Shown: positions 27,664 through 52,961, counted from the first letter of the stretch. The stretch: 64,000 nucleotides of DNA from an uncultured Bacteroidaceae bacterium (GCA_964345075.1 CAYFPS010000011.1:13156-77155), one strand, 5' to 3'. The notes: generated by a model not told the origin, from the letters alone. A program made the numbers and translations.

Positions 27664-27951
27664 ATGAAGCTGAAGCCCATGGATGACAGGGTGATTGTGA
27701 CCCGCATGGACGATTCCGTCGAGAAGAGCGCTGGCGGCATCATCATTCCCGATACCGCCAAGGAAAAGCCCCAGATGGGCAAGGTGATCGCCGTTGGAAC
27801 CGACGCTCCTGAAGGCCGCACGCCGCTCCAGGACCTGGTGAAGGAAGGCGACACGGTCGTCTTTGCCAAGTACGGCGCGACCGAAGTCAAGGTGGAAGGC
27901 GAGACCTTCCTGATCCTTGGCCGCAGTGACATTCTGGCGATCGTGGGTTAA
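27664..27951 (+). CDS. groES: Co-chaperonin GroES
   Basis: 95 aa: MKLKPMDDRVIVTRMDDSVEKSAGGIIIPDTAKEKPQMGKVIAVG. AGGAGG RBS. Confidence 0.95.
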   Translation: MKLKPMDDRVIVTRMDDSVEKSAGGIIIPDTAKEKPQMGKVIAVGTDAPEGRTPLQDLVKEGDTVVFAKYGATEVKVEGETFLILGRSDILAIVG

Positions 27952-27965
27952 GGAGAAGGAGCTAA

Positions 27966-29606
<1,641 letters not shown>

Positions 29607-29633
29607 GCCTTTCGGCTCATCAACGACCCGATC

Positions 29634-29671
29634 AACCGGCTTGTCCCTTTGGGGCAGGCCGGTTTTTCTTT
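29634..29671 (+). terminator. Rho-independent terminator after groEL
   Basis: aaccggc...gccggtt hairpin followed by TTTTCTTT. Confidence 0.65.
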
Positions 29672-29809
29672 GCCCGGCTGGCAGGGCAAGTGACCTATCC
29701 TTAGATTGATGTCCTTGGCATACAGGAGGATTAACCTTCCTGTCACATGCCCGATGGACGGAAGCCCCCGTCTTTCCTTCATTAGGCCCTGTTTTTAAAT
29801 GGAGGTCTC

Positions 29810-30310
29810 ATGTTTCATCCCATGATTGTTCATCTGCCGCTTGGTCTGGCCGCGATTCTACCGCTTGTGGGCCTGTGGCTCGTCTGGTTGTCGCGTAAAG
29901 AGAGCATTCAGCGCCCGGTCTGGATTCTGCTGCTTCTGTTGCAGCTGGTCATGACAGCCGGTGCCTTCATGGCTGTGCAGAGTGGCGAAAAGGAAGAACA
30001 CCGCGTGGAAGATCTTTTGCCTGAAGCAGGCCTGCACGAACACGAAGAGCGCGCTGAACTATTACAAAGTTTCAGCCTGCTGGTGCTGGCCGCTGCCGGT
30101 CTGGCGCTCTTTCTGGGCAGCCGCGGTGTGCTGGCAAAAGTGATGCCCCTGATTCTGCTGCTGCTCTTTTTGCTTCAGGCCGGATTGGCGGTGGCCACGG
30201 GCAAGGCCGGGGGCGAGCTCGTCTGGGACAGCGCTTCCGGGCTGACACCGCTGGAAAAGGGGCGAAGCGTGGAGAAAATCCGCGGCAGGCATGGCGAAAG
30301 GGAGGACTAA
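29810..30310 (+). CDS. Hypothetical integral membrane protein (about 4 TM)
   Basis: 166 aa, four hydrophobic helices. Precedes the TlpA/DUF4266/DUF3570/ApbE genes on the same strand. Confidence 0.5.
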   Translation: MFHPMIVHLPLGLAAILPLVGLWLVWLSRKESIQRPVWILLLLLQLVMTAGAFMAVQSGEKEEHRVEDLLPEAGLHEHEERAELLQSFSLLVLAAAGLALFLGSRGVLAKVMPLILLLLFLLQAGLAVATGKAGGELVWDSASGLTPLEKGRSVEKIRGRHGERED

Positions 30311-30364
30311 CCATCGAATCTGGCTCTGATTTTTGCATACTGCAAGCGAAGAACAGGAGATTCA

Positions 30365-30844
30365 ATGAAGCATGTTTTGATGGCGGCAAGCCTGCTGCTG
30401 GCGGGGGCTCGACTGGGCCACTCGCTGCCTGAAGCAGGTTCGCCGGCTCCCGCCCTGCCCGAGGGACAGGATCTTTCGGGCAAGATTGTCCTGCTTGATT
30501 TCTGGGCCAGCTGGTGCGAACCCTGCGCCCAGAGTTTTCCCTGGCTGGACTCCCTTCAGATCGCCCTGAAGGAGCACGCCTTTACCGTCATTGCCGTCAA
30601 TGAAGACCGCAAGTGGGCCAAGGCCGAACGCTTCCTGAAAGAAGGCGCTTACACCCTTCCCGTCGTCCATGACAAGGGCGGGAAACTGGCAGCAGCCTGG
30701 GGGCTTGAAGGCATGCCTTCGAGCATTCTGATTGATGAAACAGGCACCGTGCGCTTCAGCCATGTGGGCTTTCGAGAGGGTGACAGCCAGCTCTTCGAAA
30801 AGGAAATTGACGCTTTGCTGAAAGCTGTGGAGGCTGGCCAATGA
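30365..30844 (+). CDS. TlpA/ResA-family periplasmic thiol-disulfide oxidoreductase
   Basis: Signal peptide, then LLDFWASWCEPC (thioredoxin-fold CxxC). Confidence 0.85.
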   Translation: MKHVLMAASLLLAGARLGHSLPEAGSPAPALPEGQDLSGKIVLLDFWASWCEPCAQSFPWLDSLQIALKEHAFTVIAVNEDRKWAKAERFLKEGAYTLPVVHDKGGKLAAAWGLEGMPSSILIDETGTVRFSHVGFREGDSQLFEKEIDALLKAVEAGQ

Positions 30845-31053
30845 AAAGGCTGTTTTGCTGTGGCTTGCTGCTGGCCCTCAGTCTGGGCTGTGTCAGGCGC
30901 GTGCAGCCCTGGGAGCGCGACCTGCTGGCCGATCCGCAGATGAGCGCCCAGCCCGATGCTGTGGAAGCCGGACTGGACGAGCATGTTTACTTTTCCAAGG
31001 AAGCCGCACACGGCGGTGATGGCGTCGGTGGAGGAGGCTGCGGATGCAATTGA
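30841..31053 (+). CDS. Small lipoprotein, DUF4266-like
   Basis: 70 aa. MKRLFCCGLLLALSLGC lipobox and a Gly/Cys tail (GGGGCGCN). This is the size and position expected for DUF4266, which pairs with DUF3570. Start overlaps the upstream stop. Confidence 0.6.
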   Translation: MKRLFCCGLLLALSLGCVRRVQPWERDLLADPQMSAQPDAVEAGLDEHVYFSKEAAHGGDGVGGGGCGCN

Positions 31054-32360
31054 AGCATGTGCAGCCAGTGATGGCTGGTGGCGGCCTGCTGGCTGCGGCT
31101 GCCCTTTCGCTACTGGGATCCGCCCCCGGCAAGGCCGAGGCTGTTTCCGGCCGCTCTGGCAGCTGGACGATGGAGCAGGCCACGCTTGTATACAAGGAAG
31201 TCGATCAGGTTCAGGTCATCGAGCCTGTCTTGCGACTTAAGCGTCAACTGGCCGGCGATCGAGAGATTGCCCTGCGCTTCGGTTTTGATGCGATGAGTGG
31301 CGCCTCGCCCAATGGCGGAACCTCCTCAAACACGCATCAGATATTCACTTCCCCCTCGGGCAACAGCTATTCCGCCCAGCCCGGCGAGCTTCCACGGCGC
31401 ACCTTTCACGACGAGCGCTTCAGCGGTGGACTTGAATACACAACGCCCATGAAGCCACAGTTGAAGCTGACCAGTGGTGCCAATTTCAGTGTAGAGACGG
31501 ACTACCTGAGCCTGGGGCTTTCCAGCTCCATCGCCTGGGAGTTCAATCAAAGACACACCACGCTGAATGCAGGCATCAGCCTGAATCAGGACACTGTCTC
31601 GCCGGAAGGCGGCCTGCCCGTGGGGCTTGAACATGTATCACAGCGCGAGGAAAACAGCGACAGCGATTCCAAAACGCTGGTGGACGGCCTGATTGGTGTG
31701 ACACAGGTGATGAATGAACGCTGGCTGCTGCAGGTGAATCTCGGCATGGGGCACGATTCCGGCTACATGACCGAGCCCTACAAGGGAGTCAGCGTGCTGG
31801 ATGCTGATGGAGTTCCCGACACCGAAGCAGGCGGTGACCCGCTGATGCTCAACGAACGCCGTCCGGACTCGCGTAGCCGCAGCACTCTTCTGGTGCGGAA
31901 CATGCTGCATCTGGGGCGTGATGTGGTGCACCTTGCCTGGCGCATGTATCACGATGACTGGGGCGTTGACAGTCACTCGCTGGATCTGAAGTACTGGCTC
32001 AAGCCCGACAGCTTTCTCGGTCGTCACGACTGGAGCTTTCGCCCGCACCTGCGCTGGGCCACGCAAAGTGCCGCGGATTTCTACAAGCCCTGGCTTTCCA
32101 GCGATGAGCTTGCCGCCTATAGCCCCGGCAGTTCGCTTGATCTAAGCTCCGACCATCGTCTTGGCGAAATGCAGAGCCTGACCGCCGGCCTGCGCGTGGA
32201 CTTTCCCGAGACCGCATTTGGCCGCTTCTGGTTGAAACCCGAGTACATGGTGCAGAGCTGGACGCTGGGAGAAGCCATTCCTGCGGGCCTGGGCAGCAAT
32301 GATCCCATTCCGGATCTCAAGGTGATGATGGTGACCTTTGGCTTTTCAAGGAGCTTCTGA
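31044..32360 (+). CDS. DUF3570-like exported protein
   Basis: 438 aa, signal peptide. The DUF3570 assignment rests on gene context and size; beta-rich composition. Contains DAMSGAS at about aa 82-88. Confidence 0.55.
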   Translation: MQLKHVQPVMAGGGLLAAAALSLLGSAPGKAEAVSGRSGSWTMEQATLVYKEVDQVQVIEPVLRLKRQLAGDREIALRFGFDAMSGASPNGGTSSNTHQIFTSPSGNSYSAQPGELPRRTFHDERFSGGLEYTTPMKPQLKLTSGANFSVETDYLSLGLSSSIAWEFNQRHTTLNAGISLNQDTVSPEGGLPVGLEHVSQREENSDSDSKTLVDGLIGVTQVMNERWLLQVNLGMGHDSGYMTEPYKGVSVLDADGVPDTEAGGDPLMLNERRPDSRSRSTLLVRNMLHLGRDVVHLAWRMYHDDWGVDSHSLDLKYWLKPDSFLGRHDWSFRPHLRWATQSAADFYKPWLSSDELAAYSPGSSLDLSSDHRLGEMQSLTAGLRVDFPETAFGRFWLKPEYMVQSWTLGEAIPAGLGSNDPIPDLKVMMVTFGFSRSF

Positions 32361-33273
32361 ACCACCGCGTGAAGTGACTATCGAAGCGGGTCAGTCCGAA
32401 TGGCTGGCCCGCTTTTCCTGCTTTGCCGGCCCCTGTGAAATTCATCTTCCGGGCCTTTCGCGCAGCAGGGCCACGCGTGTATCACAGCAGATCGCCAAGG
32501 AAGCCTGGAGAATCGAATCGACCTACAGCCGCTACTTAAGCGCGAGCTGGCTGGGGCGGCTCAATGCCTTAAGCGGCCAGCGCATGGAGCTTCCGGAAGA
32601 AGCGGCCCGGCTCTTTTCCTTTGCCCAGGCCGGTTGGGAGGTCAGCGGCGGTGCTTTTGACATCAGCTCGGGTATTCTGCGGCGGGCCTGGAACTTTCAG
32701 GCAACAGAAGGGGAACTGAAGCCGCCGGCAAAGGCCGAGCTGAACGCCCTGATCGAGCGCGTGGGTTGGCAGAAGATTCGCTGGTCTTTGGAAGAAGGCT
32801 GGGTCGAAGTTCCTGAAGGCATGGAACTGGATCTAGGCGGACTGGGCAAGGAATATGCCGTGGATCGCGCCATTGCCATGCTTAACGCCAATGGCTTGTC
32901 GCATGCCTTGGTCAACTTCGGGGGCGATCTGGCTGCGACAGGGGCCATGCCCGGCGGTCGGCCCTGGTCGGTGGGGATCGATAATCCCGCCGCCACAGGG
33001 AGCGCCATGGCAGAAAGCATCGAGCTTTCCAGAGGGGCTCTTGCCACAAGTGGGGATGCCAGACGCTTCCTTTCCTATCGCGGCCGCCGCTATGGACATC
33101 TGCTTGACGCAAGAACCGGCTGGCCACCGCCCGACGCGCCGCGCTCGGTCAGTGTGTTGGCCGACACTTGTTCGGAGGCCGGCCTTCTGGCCAGCATCGC
33201 CCTCCTGATGGGTCCGGATGCCGAAGCCTTCCTTGAGGAGCAGGGCCGCAAGGCCTGGATCGTGCGCGACTGA
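32338..33273 (+). CDS. apbE: FAD:protein FMN transferase (ApbE family)
   Basis: ApbE signatures: ..GAFDISSG.., LDLGGLGKEYAVDRA, and GGDLAATG (metal/FAD site). Confidence 0.8.
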   Translation: MAFQGASEPPREVTIEAGQSEWLARFSCFAGPCEIHLPGLSRSRATRVSQQIAKEAWRIESTYSRYLSASWLGRLNALSGQRMELPEEAARLFSFAQAGWEVSGGAFDISSGILRRAWNFQATEGELKPPAKAELNALIERVGWQKIRWSLEEGWVEVPEGMELDLGGLGKEYAVDRAIAMLNANGLSHALVNFGGDLAATGAMPGGRPWSVGIDNPAATGSAMAESIELSRGALATSGDARRFLSYRGRRYGHLLDARTGWPPPDAPRSVSVLADTCSEAGLLASIALLMGPDAEAFLEEQGRKAWIVRD

Positions 33274-33377
33274 TTGTGCCCGCCTGCATTGGCCCCAATG
33301 CAGACCCGCGCCTGAAGCGTGCTGCTGGTGTGCTGATCAAGGCGTTGTGTTAGCTTTACGCATCAAAGGGAGGCAGC

Positions 33378-33593
33378 ATGATCCGCATCACCTATTGCCA
33401 GGTTTGAAACTACGAACCTCGCGCCGCCGGTCTGGCGGACTTTTTAAGAAAGCAGGGATATGAAGCCATCGAGCTGGTGGCCGGCAGTGGTGGCATCTTT
33501 GATGTTGAGCTGAACGGCAAAATGATTTACAGCAAGTTCGATGAAGGGCGCTTTCCCATGCACGAGGAAATTCTCAGCCTGCTTCAGGCCTGA
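33378..33593 (+). CDS. selW: SelW/Rdx-family selenoprotein with in-frame UGA (Sec) at 33405-33407
   Basis: Translation MIRITYCQV[U]NYEPRAAGLADFLRKQGYEAIELVAGSGGIFDVELNGKMIYSKFDEGRFPMHEEILSLLQA. CxxU redox motif. The GGIFDV..NG..IYSK...GRFP core aligns with SelW. RBS AAAGGGAGG precedes the ATG. A hairpin CCGCC-GGUCU-GGCGG lies 16 nt after the UGA. The gene is absent from the ORF track because of the TGA. Confidence 0.75.
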
Positions 33594-34657
33594 ATACCCC
33601 ATTCGACCAGCAGCTTTTCAAGCTCGGCGATGACCCGTTCTGGCGAAATCTCGGCCAGACTTCGCACCGGCTCGCAGGAGCCCTTCGCTGGCTGCTGGCG
33701 AGTGTCCGAGGCTGTGGCCAGCCAGCGCTGATTGGGCTGTGTCGGGTCGGTCCATGATTCCGGATGCACGTGCCCAAAGAGGGCGAGGCTGGGCGTGCCG
33801 GAAAGCGAGGCCAGATGTTTGGGGCCGCCATCATTGCCCACAAACAACGCGCACCTTGCCAGGATTTCCTTTAGCTGGGCGAAGGTAGGCATTTCATAAT
33901 CCACCAGCGCCTTCTGGCCGATTCGTCCGGCCAGCTCCCGCGCGGCGTCTTCTTCACCCGGTCCGTAGACCAGCATGGGCTTCAGTCCCCGCTCAGCCAG
34001 CCAGCGCCCAACTTCTGCCAGATGTTCCGGCGGCCAGACCTTGTAGGCCCGCCGGCTGACGCCAAAAAGCGCCGCCACACGATATCGCTGCTGGCCATCT
34101 GGCTGCCCGGCCTTCAGCAGGCCCGCACTGGCAAAGTGCTTCTGGCAGAAGGCCTCGGCCCATTGCCTGTCCTGTTCTGACGTGGAAAAGTCCAGTGCAA
34201 GCGCGCCATGATCCAGGGGCGAATCCAGAGCGCTGGCCGCCATTTTCAACTTGTCCAGCGCACTGTAATCGCTGTTGAAGCGTTCATAGAGCCGATTGTA
34301 GCCAAGGCCTCGCCACCATCTTCCGCCAAAGCCCGAGCGAAGAGCCGCGCCGGATAGCCGCGTGAGCAGGGCAGTCTTGGGCAGGGCCTGCGCATCGATC
34401 ACCCAGTCCGGCTGCCAGTTTCGGATCTGTTTCAGGCAGTCGACAAGCTGCCCGGCGCCAGAATGTTTGGGCAGAATGATTGGCGCTTCCAGATAGGGAT
34501 TATGCTCGAGCAGCTGCCTGCCGATGCCTTCGCAAAGGACACGAATGGATGCCGCGGGAAAGCGCTGCTGCAGCTGACGGGCAAGGGGCGTGATCATCAG
34601 AATGTCGCCCAGCTGGCGAAGTTGAATAATCAGGATGCGTCTTGGGGAAGCAGGCAT
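33584..34657 (-). CDS. Glycosyltransferase family 9 (ADP-heptose:LPS heptosyltransferase-like)
   Basis: RILIIQLRQLGDILMITPLARQL N-terminal motif typical of RfaF/RfaC/RfaQ. The track ORF up to 34750 starts at TTG; an internal ATG near 34657 is a more plausible start. Confidence 0.75.
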   Translation of the reverse strand: MPASPRRILIIQLRQLGDILMITPLARQLQQRFPAASIRVLCEGIGRQLLEHNPYLEAPIILPKHSGAGQLVDCLKQIRNWQPDWVIDAQALPKTALLTRLSGAALRSGFGGRWWRGLGYNRLYERFNSDYSALDKLKMAASALDSPLDHGALALDFSTSEQDRQWAEAFCQKHFASAGLLKAGQPDGQQRYRVAALFGVSRRAYKVWPPEHLAEVGRWLAERGLKPMLVYGPGEEDAARELAGRIGQKALVDYEMPTFAQLKEILARCALFVGNDGGPKHLASLSGTPSLALFGHVHPESWTDPTQPNQRWLATASDTRQQPAKGSCEPVRSLAEISPERVIAELEKLLVEWGIQA

Positions 34658-34813
34658 TTGGGGGCTCAGGAGAGTTCTGAATTGTGAACAGCGCAGCCCA
34701 CCCACTGACCCCCCACCCGCCCGCCCGGCGTACCGGGGGCGAGCATCCAAACGGAAAACGGAAGGTCCGGGTTCCCGCTTTTCACAGACTTTCCAAGGAA
34801 AATCACTTGAGCG

Positions 34814-35218
34814 TCAAGCAGGCTTGTCACCACCGGCCGCCTTGTAGTCCACGTACTCTTTTTCTTCCACCAGCGTGCTGCCAAAGTGCGTGTTCAGTTC
34901 TCGCTTGGCATCGGCGCGCTCATCATTGGTGTAATACACGGCGCGGGCCAGTTCGATAAAACGCGGACCAAAGTCCTGTTTTGTCTCCAGCACACGCAGC
35001 TCATCCTCAATATCCCAGAGGCGGCCATTGATCTCGTCCAGCCGGCCTTCCAGCTCCGGATGGCGCAGACCTTTAGCCTCGGCGACCTTGTCCAGCTCGC
35101 TCAGCTCCAGCCGCACATTGGCCTTGCGCGCCTCATCCCTGAAGTTCTTCAGCTTGATGCGCAGGATGGACATCTTGTCGAGCATTTCGCCCACAGACAC
35201 GGGCACTTGAATGATCAC
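34814..35218 (-). CDS. Hypothetical cytoplasmic protein (coiled-coil)
   Basis: 134 aa, charged and helical. Overlaps the start of the downstream ABC exporter gene by 4 nt. Confidence 0.4.
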   Translation of the reverse strand: MIIQVPVSVGEMLDKMSILRIKLKNFRDEARKANVRLELSELDKVAEAKGLRHPELEGRLDEINGRLWDIEDELRVLETKQDFGPRFIELARAVYYTNDERADAKRELNTHFGSTLVEEKEYVDYKAAGGDKPA

Positions 35219-37093
35219 GCCTGCTCCTTCGTCTTGAACTGCAGCTCGTAGAGCTTGCGGTACTCGTCACTTGTTTTCAGCAGCTCTTCGTGCGGGCCGA
35301 TGCCCACAATCCGGCCTTCCTTCATGCAAACGATCCGGTCTGCGCGTATCACGGTGCTCAGGCGATGGGCAATCACCAGCGCCGTGCGTGAACCAACACT
35401 GCGGTCCAGGGCTTCCTGCACCAGCTGCTCGCTTTCCGTGTCCAGTGCCGATGTCGCTTCATCCAGCACCAGAATTCGCGGTTGCCGTGATACAGCGCGG
35501 GCAATGGCCAGACGCTGCCGCTGGCCGCCGCTCAGGTTGCTGCCGCCTTCCAGAACCATGGCTTCAAGGCCACCCATGGTTTCAACAAAGTCGTGCGCAT
35601 TAGCCATTTCAAGACTGGCCCTGACCCGCTCCAGCTGAGGCTGCTCATCCGGGTAAGCCACATTTTCGGCCACGCTCAAATTGAAGAGCCAGGTTTCCTG
35701 CCCAACCACACCGAAGAGACGCCGGTAGCTGCCCAGATCCAGCTGGCGAATGTCCTGGCCATCCAGCTCGAGATGCCCGCTGGATGGGTCCACCAGCCGT
35801 AATACAAGATTGGCCAGCGACGTCTTGCCAGATCCGCTTGCCCCTACCAGCGCAATGAATTCACCCTTACGTACACAAAGATCCACGCTGTCCAGCGCCT
35901 TGTGATCGCCGTATACGAGGCTCGCTGCCTTCAGGCAGATTGTATCACGGAAGTCATCAATCAGAGCAGCGTTCTCGATTTCCACCAGTGAGCTGCGGGT
36001 TTCCAGCAGCTCGATCAGACGATCACCCGCGCCCGTCCCCTTTTGCAGGTCGTTCCAGGTGCGTGCGACAATCTTCAGGGGATGCAGCATGGAAAGCAGA
36101 GCCGCCAGAAAGGTCAGAAAAGCCGGTCCGGAAAGGGCGGCATCGGTAGCGAGCACACGGCTTCCACCGTACCACAACATGAAGACTGCCACCAGTGTGC
36201 TGGCCCACTCGCCAAAGGGGCCGGAGAGCGCGCTGACAAACTCTAGCTTGCGCACACGCCGGAAGTAGCCTTCTGTCGCCTCTTCAAAACGATGCACCTC
36301 GCGTTCGCGGGCAAAGAAGGCCTGCACCACGCGAAAACCCTGCAGGTTCTCGGCCAGTCGGTCGCTCACGCGGGAGATGTGCTCCTGCGCGCGCCGGCTG
36401 TACTTTCTGAGCTTCTGCCCGATGAACTGAAAACTGGCCACAGCAGGTGCCAGCACCAGGACGCTGAGCAGCGTGAGCCGCCAGTCGATCCAGAGCGCCA
36501 GCGCGAAGTAGACCATGCTCTGCAGCAGATTCATCGCCAGATCGGCGATTTTGGTAATGGTCAGGCTGCGCACAACCATCACATCGTTGATCACGCGCGA
36601 AATCAGCTCGCCCTGCTTGAAGCGCTGGATCACATCCAGGCTGAGCGTCTGGATATGGCTGAAGAGATGATTGCGCAATTTGCGGATCAGCGTTTGTTCC
36701 ACATGCACAAAGGCGATGCGGTAGAGATAAAGGCTGATGATTTTCAGTGTAGCACCGCCCACAGCCAGCCCGCAGAGCAGGAGCATGATGGAGAAGGGCT
36801 GATGTCGGCCCAGAAAGGCATCAAAGGCGGCGGCCAGACCTTCGCGGGCGCTGTCACTCTTCAGCGCGCTCAGCAGCTCAGCCAACAGCTGCATGATGCT
36901 TGGCCCCATGGCGTGCTCGATTCCTTCCGGAGTGGCTGAGCCGCGCAGGAAGACCCCTTCAAAAAAGGGATAGATCAGGCTGATGTTCGCCCCGGCCAGC
37001 AGGCTGGCGAAGACCATCATGATCAGACCGAGCAGGGCGGTCAGACGGACGCCCTTCATATAGGGCAGGAACATGCGGATCATGCGTAGCATT
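35215..37093 (-). CDS. ABC exporter, fused permease/ATPase (MsbA/lipid A exporter-like)
   Basis: Six-TM domain plus NBD (GASGSGKTSL, LSGGQRQRLAIARA, ILVLDEATSALD). Likely start is MLRMIRMFLPYMKG at 37093. The track ORF up to 37560 is an unsupported N-terminal extension. Confidence 0.8.
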
Positions 37094-37155
37094 CGTGCAA
37101 TATAGCGGATTTGGCTCCAGACAGCATTTTCTGACCTTTGAAGAAAGGAGGTCAC

Positions 37156-37773
37156 ATGATTGAATGGAATATCGCCACAGGCAATCCGGACAAGCTGCGA
37201 GAATTCAGGCAGATGCTGGAGGAACGCTATTCTGCCGGCATCAGGCTCTACTCGCTTGAGGATTATCCTGAACTGCCGGAGCCGGTTGAAGACGGTGATA
37301 CACTGGAAGCCAACGCACTGATCAAGGCCCGCGCCCTGTTTGCGCATAGCGGCAAGCCTTCCATTGCCGATGACACAGGCCTGATGGTGGACGCCCTGAA
37401 AGGCGAGCCGGGCGTCTACTCGGCGCGCTGGGCCGGTCCTGACTGCAGCTATCGCGACAATGTGGAGAAGATGATTCGCCTGATTCGTCCGGTGCCGGCC
37501 GATCAGCGGCAGGCCTGCTTCGAGACGGTGATCGCCTTTGTCGGGCCCGATGGTGAACACACCGTCAAGGGCCGCTGCGAGGGGATCATTCTGGATGAAG
37601 CACGAGGTGCAGGCGGCTTTGGCTACGATCCCGTCTTCTATCTGCCTGAGTTGGAGCGAAGTTTCGCTGAGCTAAGTTCTGCAGAGAAGAGCCGTGTCAG
37701 CCACCGGGGCCGCGCCATGCACGCTTTCATGGACTGGTTGGCTGAAAGTGGCGGGGCTGTCAATCAAGCCTGA
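37156..37773 (+). CDS. rdgB: Non-canonical purine NTP pyrophosphatase (RdgB/Ham1 family)
   Basis: MIEWNIATGNPDKLREF..., the SIADDTGLMVDALKGEPGVYSARWAG motif, and C-terminal SHRGRA. GGAGG RBS. Confidence 0.85.
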   Translation: MIEWNIATGNPDKLREFRQMLEERYSAGIRLYSLEDYPELPEPVEDGDTLEANALIKARALFAHSGKPSIADDTGLMVDALKGEPGVYSARWAGPDCSYRDNVEKMIRLIRPVPADQRQACFETVIAFVGPDGEHTVKGRCEGIILDEARGAGGFGYDPVFYLPELERSFAELSSAEKSRVSHRGRAMHAFMDWLAESGGAVNQA

Positions 37774-39469: not shown

Positions 39470-41728
39470 CTATTTCAGGAGCAGGGCCTTGGATGTATCA
39501 CGCCAGTTCCCGGCTTCAATCGTGTAGAAGTATACGCCAGCAGGCAGCTGATCGGCGGACCAGCTAATCGAATGTGTTCCCGGGCCCATCAGTCCAAGGG
39601 CTTCGTCATGAACCCGCCTCCCCGACAGATCGTGCACCAGAAAGCGCACGGGCGAGGCAGTTCTTTGCTTCCAGTTGATTGTCGTTGAAGGATTGAAGGG
39701 GTTGGGATGATTGGGTAGAAGTTCAAAAGCAGCCGGAGCGGCGGTATCAACACCGATGGTGATTTCGCCCAGCTGCAGGCTGAAAGGATGGCTCTCACCA
39801 AAACCGGCAAAATCAGCGACAATCCAGTAGATGCCAGCTGGCAGGCCGATTGCTTCCAGCGCTTCGCCATCCGGACCTGCCCCCAGCTCGTTTTGGGCCA
39901 GACCACAGCTGCCCACAGGGTTTGCACAGTCACCATAGACCAGAATCACCTCATCGGCATCGCCTTCGCCAGTCAGTTCGACAAGCAGATTGGTCGCATC
40001 AGTCAGCTCCACCCTGAAGACCTGGTCCAGTCCGGGACTGCTGATCTCATTCGGGCAGCTGCTCCCGTCCACATGGGCCATTGAGGGAGCTTGTTCAACA
40101 TCGATCGAGTAGGTCCCTTCCAGAACGCCGATATCCGTGTAATCGCTGCACATTTCGCCCTCTGGCAGCTGGGCTGTTAAGGACAGCGCGTAATTCTGTG
40201 CCTCTGGAAGATCACCGGGCGCGTTGTGTGTGACAACCACGAAGTAGCTGCCGGCCGGCAGCAGTTCCACACTCAAGGTTTCGGGGTGGCAGGCCGGGGC
40301 ATCATCCACTGCATGGAGCACGGCGCCGTCCGTGGCGAAGTCCGTGATGTAGAGGGCGGCATCCAGCGCGTCTACATCGCAATGAAGCTCCAGAGCCATG
40401 GCGCTTTCAAGTTCGAGCAGGAACCAGTCCTGATCGCGCTCTCCGCCCTCGGCCCAGAGCGTTCCACAGACGAGATCGCCGGGCTGTATCACATCATAGC
40501 TTGAATTGGGCGGATCAGCACTCCAGCCTTCATTGGGCTCCACCTCGGGCTGGCCATCACAGCTGATTGCCTCGTGACCGGCGCAGGGGTCGCCACTGCA
40601 GGCAAGCTCCAGAGAATAGTCGATGGCTGTCAGACCGGAGGGTTCCGATCCGTGATCCACCACGATGTAATAGCTGCCTGAGGGAAGGGCTTCCACGCTG
40701 AAGGATTCGTTGTAACACGCGGGCAGGCCGTTTGCTTCTGCAAGCTGGGCACCATCCACTGCCTGCTCCATCAATCTTAGTCTGCCGTCAAAACCGCTGA
40801 CAGTAAGATTCACTTCGATGTTACCACCAAAGTGCGTGTAGAGGTACCAGTCGCCTGTTGTATCACCGTCTTCAAGTGTGCCGCAGATCAGCTCTCCACA
40901 GCGCAGGAGAGTGTGGCTGCCATCTTCCCAGCCCTGATTCGGCTCTGTTTCCGGCAGACCGACACAGTCTATGGCATCACATTCCGCTGGAGGATAGATG
41001 GAAATGGCTACTTCGTCTTCAAGCTGCAAGCCCGCGCCATTCAATCCGATTTGCAGGCCAACGGTGCCGGACTCATTTTCAACACCGACCGTAGCTGAGT
41101 TTACCCCACCCGGATCCAGATCCAGATACTGGAATGTGATCACGCCGAAAGGGCTCAGGATGGCCTGAAAACTGTGATGCTGCGAGTTGTTGTCGTAGCG
41201 GGGAACATCATCCCATTCGATGATGAAGAGATTGCGCTCCTCGTCATGCCAGGTCAGAATCGCGCCGCCCGCGTCAATCAGGATATCGTCCCACATCGGG
41301 CAGATGCAGTTGTTGGGCTGCACTGTCGAAGGAATGTTCGTGTTGATCCAGACCAGACCGTTGCCGTCAAAGGTCATGTAACCGTTGGTGGAGACCATGA
41401 TGCTGCTGTATTCATTCCCGTAAAAGGGAAAGGACCAGGGCAGATTCACTGTTTCCGCATCATCCAGTCCGCTCAGATTAAGCTGATCGCCAACCTGGTT
41501 GATTTCGATCCAGTCGAATTCGGGGCCGCCGGCCGTGCTGTTGCTGATCCAGAAATAGCCGAAACTGTCCGGCCCGCCACTGTCCCGTGTATCACGAAGG
41601 CTGGCCTCTTGCTGAATGTCGCTACTGTCAGGTGCAGGATCCCCCGGGCGTGCAGTGGCCGGGTGGATAATGGTCAATGTCGCCAGAGTGAGGCCGACCG
41701 GGCAAAGGCGTGAAAAGCGATGCTTCAT
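39470..41728 (-). CDS. T9SS cargo protein A (752 aa): one NIDO-like module, two PPC-like Cys modules, Por_Secre_tail CTD
   Basis: Signal peptide MKHRFSRLCPVGLTLATLTIIHPATA. GGPDSFGYFWISNS..GPEFDWIEI..VSTNGYMTFDGNG..CPMWDDIL..GG.I.. (NIDO-like). Two EPN..W..D.DWY-type modules. C-terminus LLPNHPNPFNPSTTINW...KALLLK. Confidence 0.8.
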   Translation of the reverse strand: MKHRFSRLCPVGLTLATLTIIHPATARPGDPAPDSSDIQQEASLRDTRDSGGPDSFGYFWISNSTAGGPEFDWIEINQVGDQLNLSGLDDAETVNLPWSFPFYGNEYSSIMVSTNGYMTFDGNGLVWINTNIPSTVQPNNCICPMWDDILIDAGGAILTWHDEERNLFIIEWDDVPRYDNNSQHHSFQAILSPFGVITFQYLDLDPGGVNSATVGVENESGTVGLQIGLNGAGLQLEDEVAISIYPPAECDAIDCVGLPETEPNQGWEDGSHTLLRCGELICGTLEDGDTTGDWYLYTHFGGNIEVNLTVSGFDGRLRLMEQAVDGAQLAEANGLPACYNESFSVEALPSGSYYIVVDHGSEPSGLTAIDYSLELACSGDPCAGHEAISCDGQPEVEPNEGWSADPPNSSYDVIQPGDLVCGTLWAEGGERDQDWFLLELESAMALELHCDVDALDAALYITDFATDGAVLHAVDDAPACHPETLSVELLPAGSYFVVVTHNAPGDLPEAQNYALSLTAQLPEGEMCSDYTDIGVLEGTYSIDVEQAPSMAHVDGSSCPNEISSPGLDQVFRVELTDATNLLVELTGEGDADEVILVYGDCANPVGSCGLAQNELGAGPDGEALEAIGLPAGIYWIVADFAGFGESHPFSLQLGEITIGVDTAAPAAFELLPNHPNPFNPSTTINWKQRTASPVRFLVHDLSGRRVHDEALGLMGPGTHSISWSADQLPAGVYFYTIEAGNWRDTSKALLLK

Positions 41729-41751
41729 GCAAACTCCATGCTTGGGAGCTT

Positions 41752-41787
41752 CAAAGTAAAAGAAAAGGGTGACCCTTGGGCCACCCT
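41752..41787 (-). terminator. Intrinsic terminator after T9SS gene B
   Basis: Minus-strand hairpin aagggtggcc-caag-ggtcaccctt followed by ttcttttac. Confidence 0.55.
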
Positions 41788-41810
41788 TGATTGTCTAAAT
41801 CCAGCTGCTA

Positions 41811-44800
41811 CTACTTAAGCAGCACGGCCTTGCGCGTCGCCTGCCACTCGCCGCTTGACAGCGTGTATACATAGACGCCGCTGGGCAAGCTCGCTGCATT
41901 CCATGTGAAAGTATGGCTCCCCGGGCCGCGCAGCCCGAGATCTTCCTGCATCACACGCTCACCCTTCAGGTTGTAAATGCTGATTTCAGCCTTTGCCATT
42001 TCGGGCTGAATCCACTGCACGGTCGTGACCGGGTTGAAGGGATTGGGATAGTTCTGCCTGAGTTCGAAACTGAGCTCGCGCCCTTCCAGCAGGCCGCTGT
42101 TCATGTCGATCACCTGCATCACAAAGGGGTGACTTTCACCGTATCCGGCAAAGTCCGCCACCAGCCAGTAATCACCGGCAGGCAGACCCATGAACTCAAG
42201 CACTTCGCCTTCGGTGCCGGGGCCGTGATCGTTTGCGGCAGCACCACAGCTGATCGCGGGCGTCGCGCAGTTGCCAACCAGCAGAATCACTTCGTCGGCA
42301 TTGCCTTCGCCAGTCATGGCCACATGCAGGTCCATCGGTTCGGCCAGCACCACACGCAGCGTGTAATCCAGACCCGGGCTGGAAACATCACCCGGGCAGC
42401 CGGTGCCGCTGTGATGTGCGTACTCGGGCGCCGTGTCCGCGACCACCGTCCAGATGTCGTGGAAGTCGGGCACATCTTCGTAACCGTCACACATGTCCTG
42501 CGTGGGCAGGCTGCCGGAGACGGTCAGCGCATAGGCCTGCTCCTCGGGCACGCCGTTCATCTCGTTGTGGCCGATCACGATGAAGTAACTGCCAGCGGGC
42601 AGGGACTCAACCGAAATGCTTTCCGGGTGACAGGCCGGCGCGTCGTCCACCTCGTAAAGTACGCCGCCTTCAGGATTCATGTCCGTGATGAAGAGGGCTG
42701 CATCAAAGCCGTCAATTTCGCAGGAGACCACCAGCTCGGTCGCACTTTCCAGCTCCAGCAAGAACCAGTCCATGTCACGCTCGCCGGCATCGGCCCAGAC
42801 CGTACCACAAATGGTTTCGTCCAGAGCGATCACGCCATAGTTGCTGTTGGGCGGATCGGCGTTCCAGCCTTCGTTGGGTTCGGCTTCTGCCGTGCCACTG
42901 CAGTCGATGGGCTCGTGTCCGGCGCAGGGATCGCCCGAGCAGTTCAGCATCAGGGCATAACTCTGCGGGCCTTCCAGATCCGGATCACCGTCATGCTCCA
43001 CAACGATGTAATAGGAACCACTCTCCAGCTCGCTCAAGCTGAAGGCTTCGCCGAAGCAGCGCGGGAAGGTGTTGGCATCGGCCAGGATATCACCGCCCGG
43101 CGCACTTTCGCGCAGTGTGAGACGGGCATCAAAGTCGCTCACATCCACGATGACTTCGATGTTGCCGCCAAAGTGGGTGTAGAGGTACCAGTCGCTGTCG
43201 GTTGTGGTGCCGTCGCTTTCCAGTTCGCCACAGATCACATCGGCACAGCGAATGCTGTTGTAGCTACCGTCTTCCCAGCCCTGATTGGGCTCTACCTCGA
43301 CGATGCCCGTGCAATCAACCGGCTCACAGCTGGACTGGGGCAGATAGACCACCATCGTCTCGTCGGCCACGGAGCCGCCTTCACCCTGATAGCGATAACC
43401 CAGACCACCGGAAGCGTCTGCATTCTCGATACCGACATTGGCATTGGCCACATCGCTCTGATCCATTTCATCATAGGCAACTTCGATGATGCCGCTGGGA
43501 TAAAGGATGATCTCAAAGGTGAAGGGACCGCCCGAGCTGTAAGCCATGATGCCGTCGAACTGCACGATGAAGCGCTGCTCGTCTTCATCGTACTCGTAAT
43601 ACACGGTGCCGCCATTGTTCGGATTCAGGTCGTCCCAGAAGGGAGCGATCATGTTGTCCGGCGACCAGCCATCCCCATTGTAGAAGGGAATCGGGTTGGT
43701 GCTCCAGTAGCCTGTGTAACCCTGACCGAAGCTGATGTAACCGTTTGAAGCGATGTAGACTTCTGACTCGATGCCACCATACCAGGGGAAGTCGAAACCG
43801 ATATCGAAGGGACCATCGAAACTGTCGTCGCTCAAGGACGCAGCACTTCCACTGCCACTGATATCAACCCACTCGAAATCGGGACCAGTAGGATGATCGC
43901 TATTGACCCACGTGTAGCCATAGGCATCGGGGCCGCCGAAGCTGGGCGGACTGCCCCAGTAGCCGCTGTCCGTGTTGGAGGGATCCGACTCGCCCGCGTC
44001 GAAACTGGCGGTCACGTGATAATCATAGATGACATCCGCTTCCGAATCGTAGGAGCTGTCATCGGTGAAGTTCAGGCCCGTGGTCGTGGCAATCAATTCG
44101 CCATCACGGTAGACATTGTACTCGATGAAGACACGCTCATTCAGGTGGAAGATCTCGTTCACCCGGTTGACGGCTTCGTCCTTGCTCAAGCCGCGCTGCT
44201 GCAGCAGGTAAATGGCTTCTGTATCACAGGAGGGCGACACGCCGCCAAACCAGCGGGCCAACAGTCCGGGATTGACAGGTGGCATCCAGCTCAGGCCCGT
44301 ATACGACAGGAAGCCATCCGTTGCCACCAGCCCAACCGGCGGCCAGGTGTAACTGACAATGTTGAAGCTGTACGTCGGTGATACACGCGTGTTGGCGTTT
44401 TCCGAATTGTCCGTTGCCTCAACCCACCAGCTGATCATGCTGCCGGCATCCTGGTGGGGAATGTCCCCCTCGTATGTATCACCGCCAGCATTGTCCATGG
44501 CAACTTCCTGCGAAGCGCCACCGTTGATCTGATAAAACAGGCTGACCGAATCGATACCGGTCAGGTCGGTGATCTCGGCGGAAATGGTGTAATCGCCTTC
44601 CAGCTCGGTTTCCATGTCCACAGGCAGATCGTTCAGCACAATCATCGGAGGCTGGAAATCCCCTTCAAGGGCTTCCACACGAATGGCCAGTTCATCCACC
44701 AGCGCACCACCATCGCCATTGTAGTTGACCAGCAGGCCAATGGTGCCGTCACTGTTCTCGATACCAACCGTGGCAAAGGCCAGAGCGCCTTCTTCCAGGT

Positions 44801-47684: not shown

Positions 47685-47787
47685 AGGGGCTCCTATTTAG
47701 CCTGAGGCCAGATTCTTGGCAGGTTCCGCTTGCAGCTTACAAAGTGGGGGGCGTTGATTCGAGGAAAAAACCACTATACAGCAGCTT

Positions 47788-47828
47788 TAACAATGAAAGG
47801 GGCGGCCCTCGTGAATGGACCGCCCCTT
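47788..47828 (-). terminator. Intrinsic terminator after T9SS gene C
   Basis: Minus-strand hairpin aaggggcggtcc-attcacga-gggccgcccctt followed by tcattgtt. Confidence 0.5.
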
Positions 47829-47854
47829 GCTTGAATGCGATTGCTTGGGCTGAA

Positions 47855-52807: not shown

Positions 52808-52911
52808 AGGGGCTCCCAAATCCTTGAGCCAGTGTGATGTTAAAGGCAGGTTCCGAAGGGCTAGAGTAGCAAATCCCAAGCTGGAATCATGCATTTGGGA
52901 CCTTGTGCAAT

Positions 52912-52939
52912 AAAAAAGGGTCCCGCCTGCGCGGGACCC
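52912..52939 (-). terminator. Intrinsic terminator after T9SS gene D
   Basis: gggtcccgc-gcag-gcgggaccc hairpin followed by TTTTTT on the minus strand, directly after the gene D stop. Confidence 0.8.
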
Positions 52940-52961
52940 TGTTGCTTCTGATAAAGCTGGA

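What the first reader, a model, noticed from the sequence alone, without database searches (positions are those of the whole stretch)
29810..33273. TlpA / DUF4266-like / DUF3570-like / ApbE envelope cluster with a candidate flavinylation motif
A co-directional, overlapping gene set is present: membrane protein, TlpA thioredoxin (WCEPC), 70-aa lipoprotein with Gly/Cys tail, 438-aa exported protein, and the FMN transferase ApbE. ApbE flavinylates a Ser/Thr in [ST]GA[ST]-type motifs of extracytoplasmic proteins. The DUF3570-like protein carries DAMSGAS (about nt 31290-31310) near its N-terminus. It is therefore a plausible, so far uncharacterised, flavinylated redox partner, with TlpA supplying reducing equivalents.
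Basis: inference. Interest (0 to 1): 0.6.

Follow-up and report, generated by a model that had tools for sequence, protein, structure and literature searches.

The report
Known ApbE–DUF3570 flavinylation gene cluster
This five-gene operon is a new example of an envelope redox system published in 2021, in which the enzyme ApbE attaches a flavin to the DUF3570 protein. It is not a new discovery, but my analysis adds that DUF3570 looks like an outer-membrane barrel and that its ApbE has no export signal.

Summary
Five co-directional genes at 29810-33273 encode DUF2231, a TlpA-like redoxin (WCEPC), a DUF4266 lipoprotein, DUF3570 and ApbE (Pfam E-values 8e-8 to 3e-89). DUF3570 carries an exact ApbE motif, D82-A-M-S-G-A-S88 (nt 31287-31307). 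The motif is strictly kept in 52/54 close homologues and 118/145 family representatives.

Méheust et al. 2021 (eLife, PMC8238504) showed that a Chlorobium DUF3570 is flavinylated by its cognate ApbE. They also described ApbE/DUF3570/thioredoxin-like/DUF4266 clusters, 227 with DsbD and 316 without.

What I add:
- DUF3570 models (pLDDT 87) as a 16-strand outer-membrane β-barrel. The acceptor Ser sits on the lumen-facing side at the outer end of strand 3.
- The cluster's ApbE lacks any signal peptide here and in 67/67 related loci. This suggests flavinylation in the cytoplasm before export.
- DUF4266 ends in GG(G)GCGCN in 77/77 loci.
- DUF2231 is an addition specific to this clade, and there is no DsbD in the window.

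Verdict: a new member of a known kind, of modest interest.

The parts
29634..29664 (+). Terminator-like hairpin after groEL. It marks the upstream boundary of the operon.
   Evidence: 14-bp stem with 9 GC pairs, followed by a T-run.
29810..30310 (+). DUF2231 four-helix membrane protein, 166 aa, with no Cys. The invariant residues H3, P4, V7, H8, P10, G59, H78, E79, G131 and G134 cluster on the predicted periplasmic face. It is an addition to the operon specific to this clade.
   Evidence: Pfam PF09990, E=7.9e-8. Alignment A2. AF2 model with pLDDT 87.6 and four long helices. No significant PDB match. Found next to DUF3570 clusters only in the window's closest relatives; more distant homologues lie in other contexts.
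30365..30844 (+). Exported TlpA/ResA-like thioredoxin-fold reductase with active site W-C51-E-P-C54 (nt 30515-30526).
   Evidence: Redoxin E=1.4e-18. Below the TlpA, ResA and DsbE equivalog or subfamily cut-offs. Hydrophobic N-terminus. Present in 65-70 of 80 related loci, usually first in the order TlpA>DUF4266>DUF3570>ApbE.
30841..31053 (+). DUF4266 small lipoprotein. Lipobox LSLG-C17 (Cys at nt 30889-91) with +2 residue Val. The C-terminal tail is GGGG-C67-G-C69-N, with the CGC at nt 31039-31047.
   Evidence: PF14086, E=4.3e-23. 77/77 loci end in GG(G)GCGCN. A lipobox was found by the pattern search in 64/77, and its +2 residue is S, A, G or V, never D.
31044..32360 (+). DUF3570, 438 aa, with a Sec-type signal peptide. 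It is predicted to be a 16-strand outer-membrane β-barrel that ends in Phe.
   Evidence: PF12094, 300 bits. AF2 pLDDT 87.4, pTM 0.84, 16 long strands. All connections longer than 15 aa fall on the odd-to-even side. Foldseek PDB hits are exclusively OM barrels (OccD/OprD, AlgE, BcsC, BamA), with E down to 3e-9 and TM up to 0.49. The family has 3562 cluster representatives.
31287..31307 (+). ApbE flavinylation motif D82-A-M-S85-G-A-S88. The predicted FMN acceptor is S88 (nt 31305-31307). It lies at the outer end of strand 3, at the start of the conserved loop 90-117.
   Evidence: Exact match to D-x-x-[S/T]-G-A-[S/T] (PMC12052999). Strict [ST]GA[ST] at this column in 52/54 and 118/145. A homologue has been experimentally flavinylated (PMC8238504).
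32338..33273 (+). ApbE FAD:protein FMN transferase. The start is TTG 32338 or, more likely, GTG 32374 (299 aa). It has no signal peptide or lipobox.
   Evidence: PF02424, E=1.1e-64. Aligns to solved ApbE structures and keeps DLGG-x-x-K-x-YA-x-D and TSGD...Y-x-H-x-x-D. An in-frame TGA at 32332-34 sits immediately upstream. N-terminal maximum hydropathy is 0.93. 0/67 homologous cluster ApbEs have a hydrophobic N-terminal stretch, against 59/70 TlpA-like proteins and 62/77 DUF4266.

Best explanation
The window carries a five-gene operon of the ApbE/DUF3570/DUF4266/thioredoxin-like envelope flavinylation system described in 2021.

The steps, each with its basis:
- ApbE uses FAD to attach FMN by a phosphoester bond to Ser88 of DUF3570, within D-A-M-S-G-A-S. 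This is shown for a homologue. Here it is inferred from the exact motif and its conservation.
- DUF3570 is exported by Sec and assembled as a 16-strand outer-membrane β-barrel. Ser88 faces the lumen at the outer end of strand 3, at the base of an unusually conserved loop. This is a prediction from the AF2 model.
- ApbE has no export signal, and ApbE accepts short linear motifs. Flavinylation therefore most likely occurs on the unfolded precursor in the cytoplasm, where FAD is available, before export. This is inference.
- On the periplasmic side, the TlpA-like reductase (CxxC) keeps the invariant C-terminal Cys-Gly-Cys of the DUF4266 lipoprotein reduced. The flexible Gly4-CGC tail of DUF4266 then passes electrons to the barrel-bound FMN, and from there to an unknown acceptor at or beyond the outer membrane. 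This is inference, and it follows the published 'hybrid thioredoxin-like/flavin' model.
- Reducing power for the TlpA-like protein must come from a DsbD/CcdA encoded elsewhere. DUF2231, which has no Cys but a periplasm-facing His/Glu cluster, is an accessory specific to this clade whose role is unknown.

The confidence of 0.7 is for the statement as a whole. For membership of the published system and flavinylation at S88 alone I would put it at about 0.85. The outer-membrane barrel is about 0.7, cytoplasmic flavinylation about 0.4, and the thiol-to-flavin electron path about 0.4.
For: - Family assignments.
- Published proof of DUF3570 flavinylation by its cognate ApbE, and of the cluster type: PMC8238504.
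- Motif definition and acceptor residue, the 7-residue linear tag being sufficient, and the existence of cytosolic ApbEs: PMC12052999.
- Motif conservation: 52/54 and 118/145.
- Conserved gene order TlpA>DUF4266>DUF3570>ApbE in 54/80 genome loci, plus truncated versions. There are 431 relatives in the genome collection.
- ApbE catalytic motifs are retained.
- β-barrel model with OM-barrel-only fold hits. 33/54 homologues end in F, Y or W. The organism is a diderm, with heptosyltransferase and T9SS cargo genes in the window.
- ApbE has no signal peptide.
- The DUF4266 tail and lipobox statistics.
- DsbD lies divergently upstream in 27/80 loci but is absent from the window.
Against: - No flavin has been measured on this protein.
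- The barrel topology, the lumen-facing position of S88 and the extracellular assignment of the long loops all rest on an AF2 secondary-structure string and the usual OMP rules. I could not inspect coordinates.
- The published homologue has two modified Ser. The window protein has only one canonical motif (NGGT at 90-93, TSPS at 102-105).
- Cytoplasmic flavinylation followed by Sec export of an FMN-bearing chain has no direct precedent that I could cite from the library. A second, exported ApbE elsewhere in the genome cannot be excluded.
- No electron transfer between TlpA-like protein, DUF4266 and FMN has ever been demonstrated.
- Signal-peptide absence was judged by hydropathy, with internal positive controls, and not by SignalP.
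Confidence: 0.7

Rival explanations
1. Same system, but flavinylation happens in the periplasm. Either this ApbE reaches the periplasm by an unrecognised route, or a second, exported ApbE of the genome modifies unfolded DUF3570 while it is held by periplasmic chaperones. In that case the cluster ApbE would have another role or another target.
For: Most bacterial ApbEs are periplasmic lipoproteins, and cytosolic expression of Salmonella ApbE failed to complement (PMC12052999). Many genomes carry several ApbEs (PMC8238504). FMN-bearing chains passing through SecYEG is undocumented in the sources I read.
Against: 0/67 cluster ApbEs have any hydrophobic N-terminal stretch, while the co-encoded TlpA-like and DUF4266 proteins do. 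In the window an in-frame stop excludes a longer N-terminus. The cognate ApbE flavinylated signal-peptide-less DUF3570 in the E. coli cytoplasm. DUF3570-linked apbE genes were found as 'orphan' ApbEs in their genomes.
Confidence: 0.25
2. DUF3570 is not an electron wire but a catalytic pore. The lumen FMN reduces a solute passing through the barrel, for example ferric chelates for iron uptake. DUF2231, with its periplasmic His/Glu cluster, would handle the product metal.
For: 25 published clusters contain a VIT1 ferrous transporter, and iron assimilation was suggested. DUF3570 has many invariant charged residues (E52, D123, E151, D153, K247, R273, R300, D304, R337, D370, R372), typical of a lined lumen. 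DUF2231 has invariant H3/H8/H78/E79 with the sequence HEHEE.
Against: No iron transporter, TonB or siderophore gene lies next to the operon in the window. DUF2231 is absent from 77/80 related loci. No metal-binding fold match was found.
Confidence: 0.2
3. DUF2231 replaces DsbD as the inner-membrane electron entry point for this clade's operon.
For: It occupies the first position of the operon in the window and its closest relatives. DsbD is not in the 64-kb window.
Against: It has no cysteine, so it cannot run a thiol-disulfide relay to a CxxC protein. All invariant residues lie on one (periplasmic) face, with no pair of ligands on the cytoplasmic half for a transmembrane haem pair. More distant homologues sit in unrelated contexts. 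316 published clusters also lack an adjacent DsbD.
Confidence: 0.12
4. The SGAS motif in this particular protein is not modified. It would be a structural relic, and DUF3570 would act as a plain porin.
For: Ser acceptors are flavinylated 10-55% less well than Thr. Only one canonical site is present.
Against: All seven motif positions match. An intact ApbE is adjacent or overlapping. The motif is the most conserved stretch of the family. The homologue's acceptor residues were also Ser.
Confidence: 0.05

Closest known systems
ApbE/DUF3570/thioredoxin-like/DUF4266 clusters ('DsbD systems') of Méheust et al. 2021, eLife 10:e66878
   Same: The same four Pfam families in one co-directional cluster, and the same [S/T]GA[S/T] site in DUF3570. 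[quoted passage not shown] The window fits the 316 published clusters that lack an adjacent DsbD.
   Different: - The thioredoxin-like gene here matches Redoxin/AhpC-TSA (PF08534/PF00578), not the PF13899 family cited in the paper.
- A DUF2231 membrane protein is added as the first gene.
- There is only one canonical flavinylation motif, against two in C. luteolum.
- In the main text I searched, 'outer membrane' occurs once, in a passage on TonB receptors, and the phrase 'cytosolic ApbE' does not occur. I could not see the figures. The text therefore does not describe DUF3570 as an outer-membrane barrel, and I found no remark that its ApbE lacks a signal peptide.
NqrC/RnfG-type FMN_bind domain proteins flavinylated by periplasmic ApbE
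   Same: The same transferase family, the same D-x-x-[S/T]-G-A-[S/T] motif, and a phosphoester link to the last Ser/Thr.
   Different: The acceptor here is a β-barrel membrane protein, not an FMN_bind α/β domain. The ApbE lacks the lipoprotein signal. The partners are thiol-disulfide proteins rather than Fe-S or quinone modules.
Cytosolic ApbE of Klebsiella pneumoniae (flavinylates a soluble cytoplasmic fumarate reductase)
   Same: An ApbE without a signal peptide that acts in the cytoplasm (PMC12052999).
   Different: Its substrate stays in the cytoplasm. Here the substrate has a signal peptide and a predicted outer-membrane destination.
Porin-cytochrome conduits (MtrAB type). This is an analogy from general knowledge and was not tested here.
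   Same: The idea of an outer-membrane β-barrel that houses a redox cofactor reached by a periplasmic partner.
   Different: Haem proteins against a covalent flavin on the barrel itself. No sequence or fold relationship was shown: the best fold matches are Occ/OprD, AlgE, BcsC and BamA barrels at TM 0.4-0.49.
TlpA/ResA/CcmG reductive thioredoxin-fold proteins fed by DsbD/CcdA
   Same: An exported thioredoxin fold with a W-C-x-P-C active site. DsbD is encoded next to the cluster in 27/80 related loci.
   Different: It scores below every NCBIfam equivalog cut-off. The presumed client is a CGC-tailed lipoprotein rather than apocytochrome c or a Cu chaperone.

Membership tests
DUF3570 (PF12094) ApbE-substrate family | Full-length match to the Pfam model above the gathering score | tested here: met
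   300.1 bits against a cut-off of 25; residues 15-434 match profile positions 3-425 of 427.
DUF3570 (PF12094) ApbE-substrate family | Conserved [S/T]GA[S/T] flavinylation motif (D-x-x-[S/T]-G-A-[S/T]) | tested here: met
   D82-A-M-S-G-A-S88. The column is strict in 52/54 and 118/145 homologues.
DUF3570 (PF12094) ApbE-substrate family | A second [S/T]GA[S/T] motif, as in C. luteolum | tested here: not met
   The window has NGGT (90-93) and TSPS (102-105). A strict second motif is rare in my samples: 4 at column 90 and 4 at column 102 of 145. I could not retrieve the C. luteolum sequence to fix the site.
DUF3570 (PF12094) ApbE-substrate family | Covalent FMN actually attached | not testable with these tools
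   Needs co-expression with UV fluorescence or mass spectrometry. Shown only for the C. luteolum homologue.
ApbE FAD:protein FMN transferase (PF02424) | Domain match and catalytic/FAD-Mg motifs | tested here: met
   219 bits. Aligns to 13 solved ApbE sequences with E down to 2e-30, keeping DLGGxxKxYAxD and TSGD...YxHxxD. It is below the E. coli ApbE equivalog cut-off (90 against 498 bits), so it belongs to a different subfamily.
Extracytosolic (lipoprotein or secreted) ApbE | N-terminal signal peptide or lipobox | tested here: not met
   An in-frame stop at 32332-34 precedes the earliest possible start. Maximum 12-residue hydropathy is 0.93. 0/67 cluster ApbEs reach 2.0 on a 10-residue scale, against 59/70 TlpA-like proteins and 62/77 DUF4266.
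DUF4266 (PF14086) | Pfam match, secretion signal and C-terminal CXC | tested here: met
   82.4 bits against 27. Lipobox LSLGC. CGC is present in 77/77 loci, and 75/77 have the identical tail GGGGCGCN.
TlpA (NCBIfam NF047696 equivalog) | Score above the equivalog cut-off | tested here: not met
   66.8 bits against 230. ResA scores 81 against 170 and DsbE 62.5 against 123. It is a thioredoxin-fold protein with WCxPC, TlpA-like only.
'DsbD system' sensu Méheust 2021 | DsbD (PF02683) encoded in the cluster | tested here: not met
   No DsbD homologue anywhere in the 64-kb window. It is present in 27/80 related loci. The paper itself lists 316 clusters without DsbD.
Outer-membrane β-barrel protein | Signal peptide, an even number of antiparallel strands closing a barrel, long loops alternating with short turns, and a C-terminal aromatic residue | tested here: met
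   AF2 pLDDT 87.4 and pTM 0.84, with 16 strands. Long connections of 28, 22, 35, 33 and 17 aa all fall on the odd-to-even side. The 50 Foldseek PDB hits listed are all OM barrels. The terminal residue is Phe. This is a prediction, not an experiment, and the coordinates were not inspectable.

The most novel reading that the evidence does not exclude
DUF3570 is an outer-membrane flavoprotein barrel. Its FMN is installed in the cytoplasm by a dedicated signal-less ApbE on the unfolded precursor, carried through SecYEG and BAM, and ends up in the barrel lumen on the cell-surface side. There the Gly4-Cys-Gly-Cys tail of the OM lipoprotein DUF4266 reaches it. Together these would form a haem-free thiol-to-flavin route for electrons across the outer membrane.
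Probability: 0.3. Interest if true: 0.75.

Novelty: new member of a known kind. Interest (0 to 1): 0.3.

Why it matters
The window adds one more example, from an uncultured T9SS-bearing diderm, with a DUF2231 gene added.

The side observations are the useful part. If DUF3570 really is an outer-membrane barrel, the system would be the first flavin-based counterpart of porin-cytochrome conduits. If its flavin is really attached before export by a cytoplasmic ApbE, that would be an unusual order of events, with a cofactor attached before Sec export. The family is large (3562 cluster representatives, 431 loci in species-representative genomes) and its physiological function is still unknown. These predictions therefore give concrete, cheap experiments.

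Tried and rejected
- I looked for the DUF3570 sheet of the eLife supplementary table, to read the authors' SignalP calls for the cluster ApbEs. The stored file is truncated and lacks that sheet.
- I could not retrieve the C. luteolum proteins (ABB24424.1/ABB24423.1) to locate the second modified Ser or to check that ApbE's N-terminus.
- The fold search for DUF2231 returned only generic four-helix bundles with E≥0.15, so it is uninformative.
- I considered predicting a DUF3570+DUF4266 complex from a fused chain.
- I considered DUF2231 as a DsbD substitute and rejected it on chemistry. It has no Cys and its conserved residues lie on one face.
- I searched the window for DsbD and for the sensor kinase that is common in related loci. 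There is no DsbD, and only a weak match to an unrelated kinase about 30 kb away.
- The promoter scan found no sigma-70-like site in 29500-33700. This is not informative for this lineage.


Full report

| Coordinates | Length | Family (Pfam) | E-value |
|---|---|---|---|
| 29810-30310 | 166 aa | DUF2231 (PF09990) | 7.9e-8 |
| 30365-30844 | 159 aa | Redoxin/AhpC-TSA/Thioredoxin_8 | 1.4e-18 |
| 30841-31053 | 70 aa | DUF4266 (PF14086) | 4.3e-23 |
| 31044-32360 | 438 aa | DUF3570 (PF12094), 300 bits | 3.2e-89 |
| 32338-33273 | 311 aa | ApbE (PF02424) | 1.1e-64 |

NCBIfam places the redoxin well below the TlpA, ResA and DsbE cut-offs, so it is TlpA-like, not TlpA.

The middle genes overlap: 4 nt between the TlpA-like gene and DUF4266, and 10 nt between DUF4266 and DUF3570. 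The ApbE gene either overlaps DUF3570 by 23 nt (TTG 32338) or follows it after 13 nt (GTG 32374). Gene callers in five independent assemblies chose the GTG. A strong terminator-like hairpin after groEL (29634-29664) marks the upstream boundary.

DAMSGAS is residues 82-88, nt 31287-31307.

**It is already published.** A full-text search found four papers that mention DUF3570, and only one treats it in depth. Méheust et al. 2021 (eLife, PMC8238504) identified DUF3570 as a new ApbE substrate. They found conserved [S/T]GA[S/T] motifs in 228 ApbE-associated DUF3570 proteins. They co-expressed the Chlorobium luteolum protein with its cognate ApbE and saw covalent flavin, which was lost only when the Ser of both motifs were changed to Ala.

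[quoted passage not shown] There were 227 such clusters with DsbD and 316 without. They proposed a hybrid thioredoxin-like/flavin electron-transfer system of unknown function.

**Motif test.** The ApbE motif is D-x-x-[S/T]-G-A-[S/T], and FMN goes on the last residue. Seven residues are sufficient, even as a linear tag (PMC12052999). The window sequence matches at every position, so the acceptor should be S88.

- In 54 homologues of 33-90% identity: D82 53/54, G86 54/54, A87 52/54, S/T88 54/54. The strict motif is present in 52/54.
- A profile search of 1.84 billion cluster representatives found 3562 family members. Among 145 of the best: D in 142, G in 144 and S/T88 in 143 of the 144 residues aligned at those columns. 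The strict motif is present in 118 of the 145.

A second strict motif is rare in my samples. Candidates are columns 90-93 (N/S/T-G-A-x) and 102-105 (T-x-P/A-S, with S105 kept in 135/145). The window has NGGT and TSPS, so only one canonical site.

**Comparative genomics.** A scan of species-representative genomes found 431 relatives. In the 80 loci fetched, the order TlpA>DUF4266>DUF3570>ApbE occurs in 54. Most of the remaining loci show parts or variants of this order, and several sit on short contigs.

Clustering of neighbouring genes also found a full-length DsbD, divergently upstream, in 27 loci, and a sensor kinase in 40 loci. Neither is in the window.

DUF2231 precedes the TlpA-like gene only in the window, in its 90%-identical relatives, and in the nearest lineages: L002-L004 and the contig carrying P0123. 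More distant DUF2231 homologues lie in unrelated contexts.

**DUF3570 fold.** AlphaFold2 with the 54-sequence alignment gives pLDDT 87.4 and pTM 0.84. The protein is almost entirely β, with 16 long strands.

- The connections 3-4, 7-8, 9-10, 13-14 and 15-16 are 28, 22, 35, 33 and 17 residues long.
- All even-to-odd connections are 2-11 residues.

This is the classic pattern of long extracellular loops and short periplasmic turns. Foldseek against the PDB returns only outer-membrane barrels among the 50 hits listed (OccD/OprD, AlgE, BcsC, BamA, FadL/TodX, TonB-dependent receptors). E-values go down to 3e-9, but TM-scores reach at most 0.49, and the best are for 16-strand barrels. DUF3570 is therefore a distinct barrel family.

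Other observations agree:

- The protein has an Ala/Leu-rich signal peptide and ends in Phe. 33/54 homologues end in F, Y or W.
- The organism is a diderm: the window has a heptosyltransferase gene and four T9SS-tailed proteins.
- The published homologue went into inclusion bodies in E. coli, as barrels without their signal peptide do.

Strand 3 spans residues 74-89. Residues 79 and 81 are hydrophobic across the family, while 78 and 82 are R/K and D. S88 shares parity with the polar face, so it should point into the lumen at the outer end of the strand.

The following loop (90-117) is the most conserved part of the family: G91, S105 and G106 are invariant, and Q99, T100, F101, T102, P104 and Y109 are kept in at least 90%. 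That is unusual for a surface loop and suggests it folds around the flavin. I could not inspect coordinates, so the placement is inference.

**ApbE has no export signal.** In the window an in-frame TGA (32332-34) lies directly before the earliest possible start. The N-terminus (MAFQGASEPPREVTIEAGQSEW..., or MTIEAGQSEW... from the GTG) is hydrophilic, with a maximum 12-residue hydropathy of 0.93.

Across related loci, none of 67 cluster ApbEs has a 10-residue stretch with mean Kyte-Doolittle hydropathy of 2.0 or more upstream of the conserved F-x-A-M-A-S-P-C-E strand (median 0.64). By contrast, 59/70 TlpA-like proteins and 62/77 DUF4266 proteins from the same loci do. The enzyme keeps the ApbE motifs seen in solved structures.

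Cytosolic ApbEs are known, but only for cytoplasmic substrates. Here the substrate is exported. The simplest reconciliation is flavinylation of the unfolded precursor in the cytoplasm, where FAD is available, followed by Sec export and BAM assembly. This would also explain how a site on the far side of an outer-membrane barrel can be modified.

The published co-expression used signal-peptide-less DUF3570 with its cognate ApbE in the E. coli cytoplasm, and the protein was purified from the insoluble lysed-cell pellet. That is compatible with this reading but does not prove it.

**DUF4266.**

- All 77 loci that encode it end in GG(G)GCGCN, and 75 have the identical tail GGGGCGCN.
- A lipobox was found by my pattern in 64 of them; several of the remainder show one on inspection.
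- The +2 residue is S, A, G or V, never Asp. By the E. coli sorting rule this would send the protein to the outer membrane. That rule comes from general knowledge and is not validated for this phylum.
- Its gene sits immediately upstream of DUF3570 in nearly all loci and overlaps it in the window.

A flexible Gly4 linker ending in a CGC dithiol is a plausible redox arm that could reach into the barrel.

**DUF2231.** The model is a four-helix membrane bundle (pLDDT 87.6) with no significant PDB match. The protein has no Cys. Its invariant residues (H3, P4, V7, H8, P10, G59, H78, E79, G131, G134) all fall at the N-terminus, in the acidic TM2-TM3 loop (HEHEE), or after TM4. By the positive-inside rule these are all on the periplasmic face. 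That argues against a DsbD-like relay and for a metal- or cofactor-binding accessory. Its role remains unknown.

**Mechanism proposed, with status.**

- Shown for the family: ApbE flavinylates DUF3570 at the SGAS-type motif.
- Predicted here: DUF3570 is an outer-membrane barrel with lumen-facing S88-FMN.
- Inferred: flavinylation is cytoplasmic and precedes export. Electrons pass from DsbD/CcdA (encoded elsewhere) to the TlpA-like CxxC, then to the DUF4266 CGC, then to FMN, then to an unknown acceptor at or beyond the outer membrane.

Rivals are periplasmic flavinylation by another ApbE, a catalytic pore such as a ferric reductase (VIT1 occurs in 25 published clusters), DUF2231 as the electron entry point, and an unmodified motif.

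**Verdict.** The window holds a new member of a known kind with a clade-specific extra gene. Interest as a finding is modest. The barrel fold and the signal-less ApbE are the points worth following up.

Noticed in passing
window 32332-32376; loci L001-L080, ApbE genes: The ApbE of DUF3570 clusters has no signal peptide or lipobox in the window or in 67/67 related loci, although its substrate is exported. It also carries a conserved F-x-A-M-A-S-P-C-E N-terminal strand with an invariant-looking Cys.
   Followed up: partly
window 31044-32360: DUF3570 models as a 16-strand outer-membrane β-barrel (pLDDT 87). The main text of the 2021 paper that I searched does not describe it as an outer-membrane protein. 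The flavinylation site lies at the outer end of strand 3, next to the family's most conserved loop (residues 90-117).
   Followed up: partly
window 31030-31053; DUF4266 genes in 77 loci: The C-terminal octapeptide GGGGCGCN is identical in 75 of 77 DUF4266 proteins from phylogenetically distant bacteria. This is far more conserved than the rest of the 50-residue mature protein.
   Followed up: partly
window 29810-30310: The DUF2231 membrane protein has three invariant His plus an HEHEE acidic loop, all on the predicted periplasmic face, and no Cys. It is fused into the operon only in this clade. It is possibly a metal or cofactor site.
   Followed up: partly
window 39470-56354, minus strand: Four consecutive large ORFs (752, 1957, 1679 and 1130 aa) all end in a T9SS Por_Secre_tail sorting domain and carry PPC domains. 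Two have a NIDO (nidogen-like) domain and one has a CBM_56. This points to an FCB-group-like organism with abundant secreted surface proteins.
   Followed up: no
window 33584-37560, minus strand: Directly downstream and convergent to the operon lie a family-9 heptosyltransferase, a DUF6165 protein and an MsbA-like ABC exporter (LPS/outer-membrane biogenesis genes). The same arrangement is kept in the 90%-identical relatives L082-L085.
   Followed up: no
loci L005-L080 (for example L011 8463-9902, L027 5279-7165): In gammaproteobacterial and betaproteobacterial relatives the cluster is flanked by a sensor histidine kinase (40/80 loci) and a divergently transcribed full-length DsbD (27/80). Both are absent from the window.
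   Followed up: partly
window 27664-29664: groES-groEL lies immediately upstream, ending in a strong intrinsic-terminator-like hairpin. The GroEL C-terminus has the usual GGM repeat.
   Followed up: no
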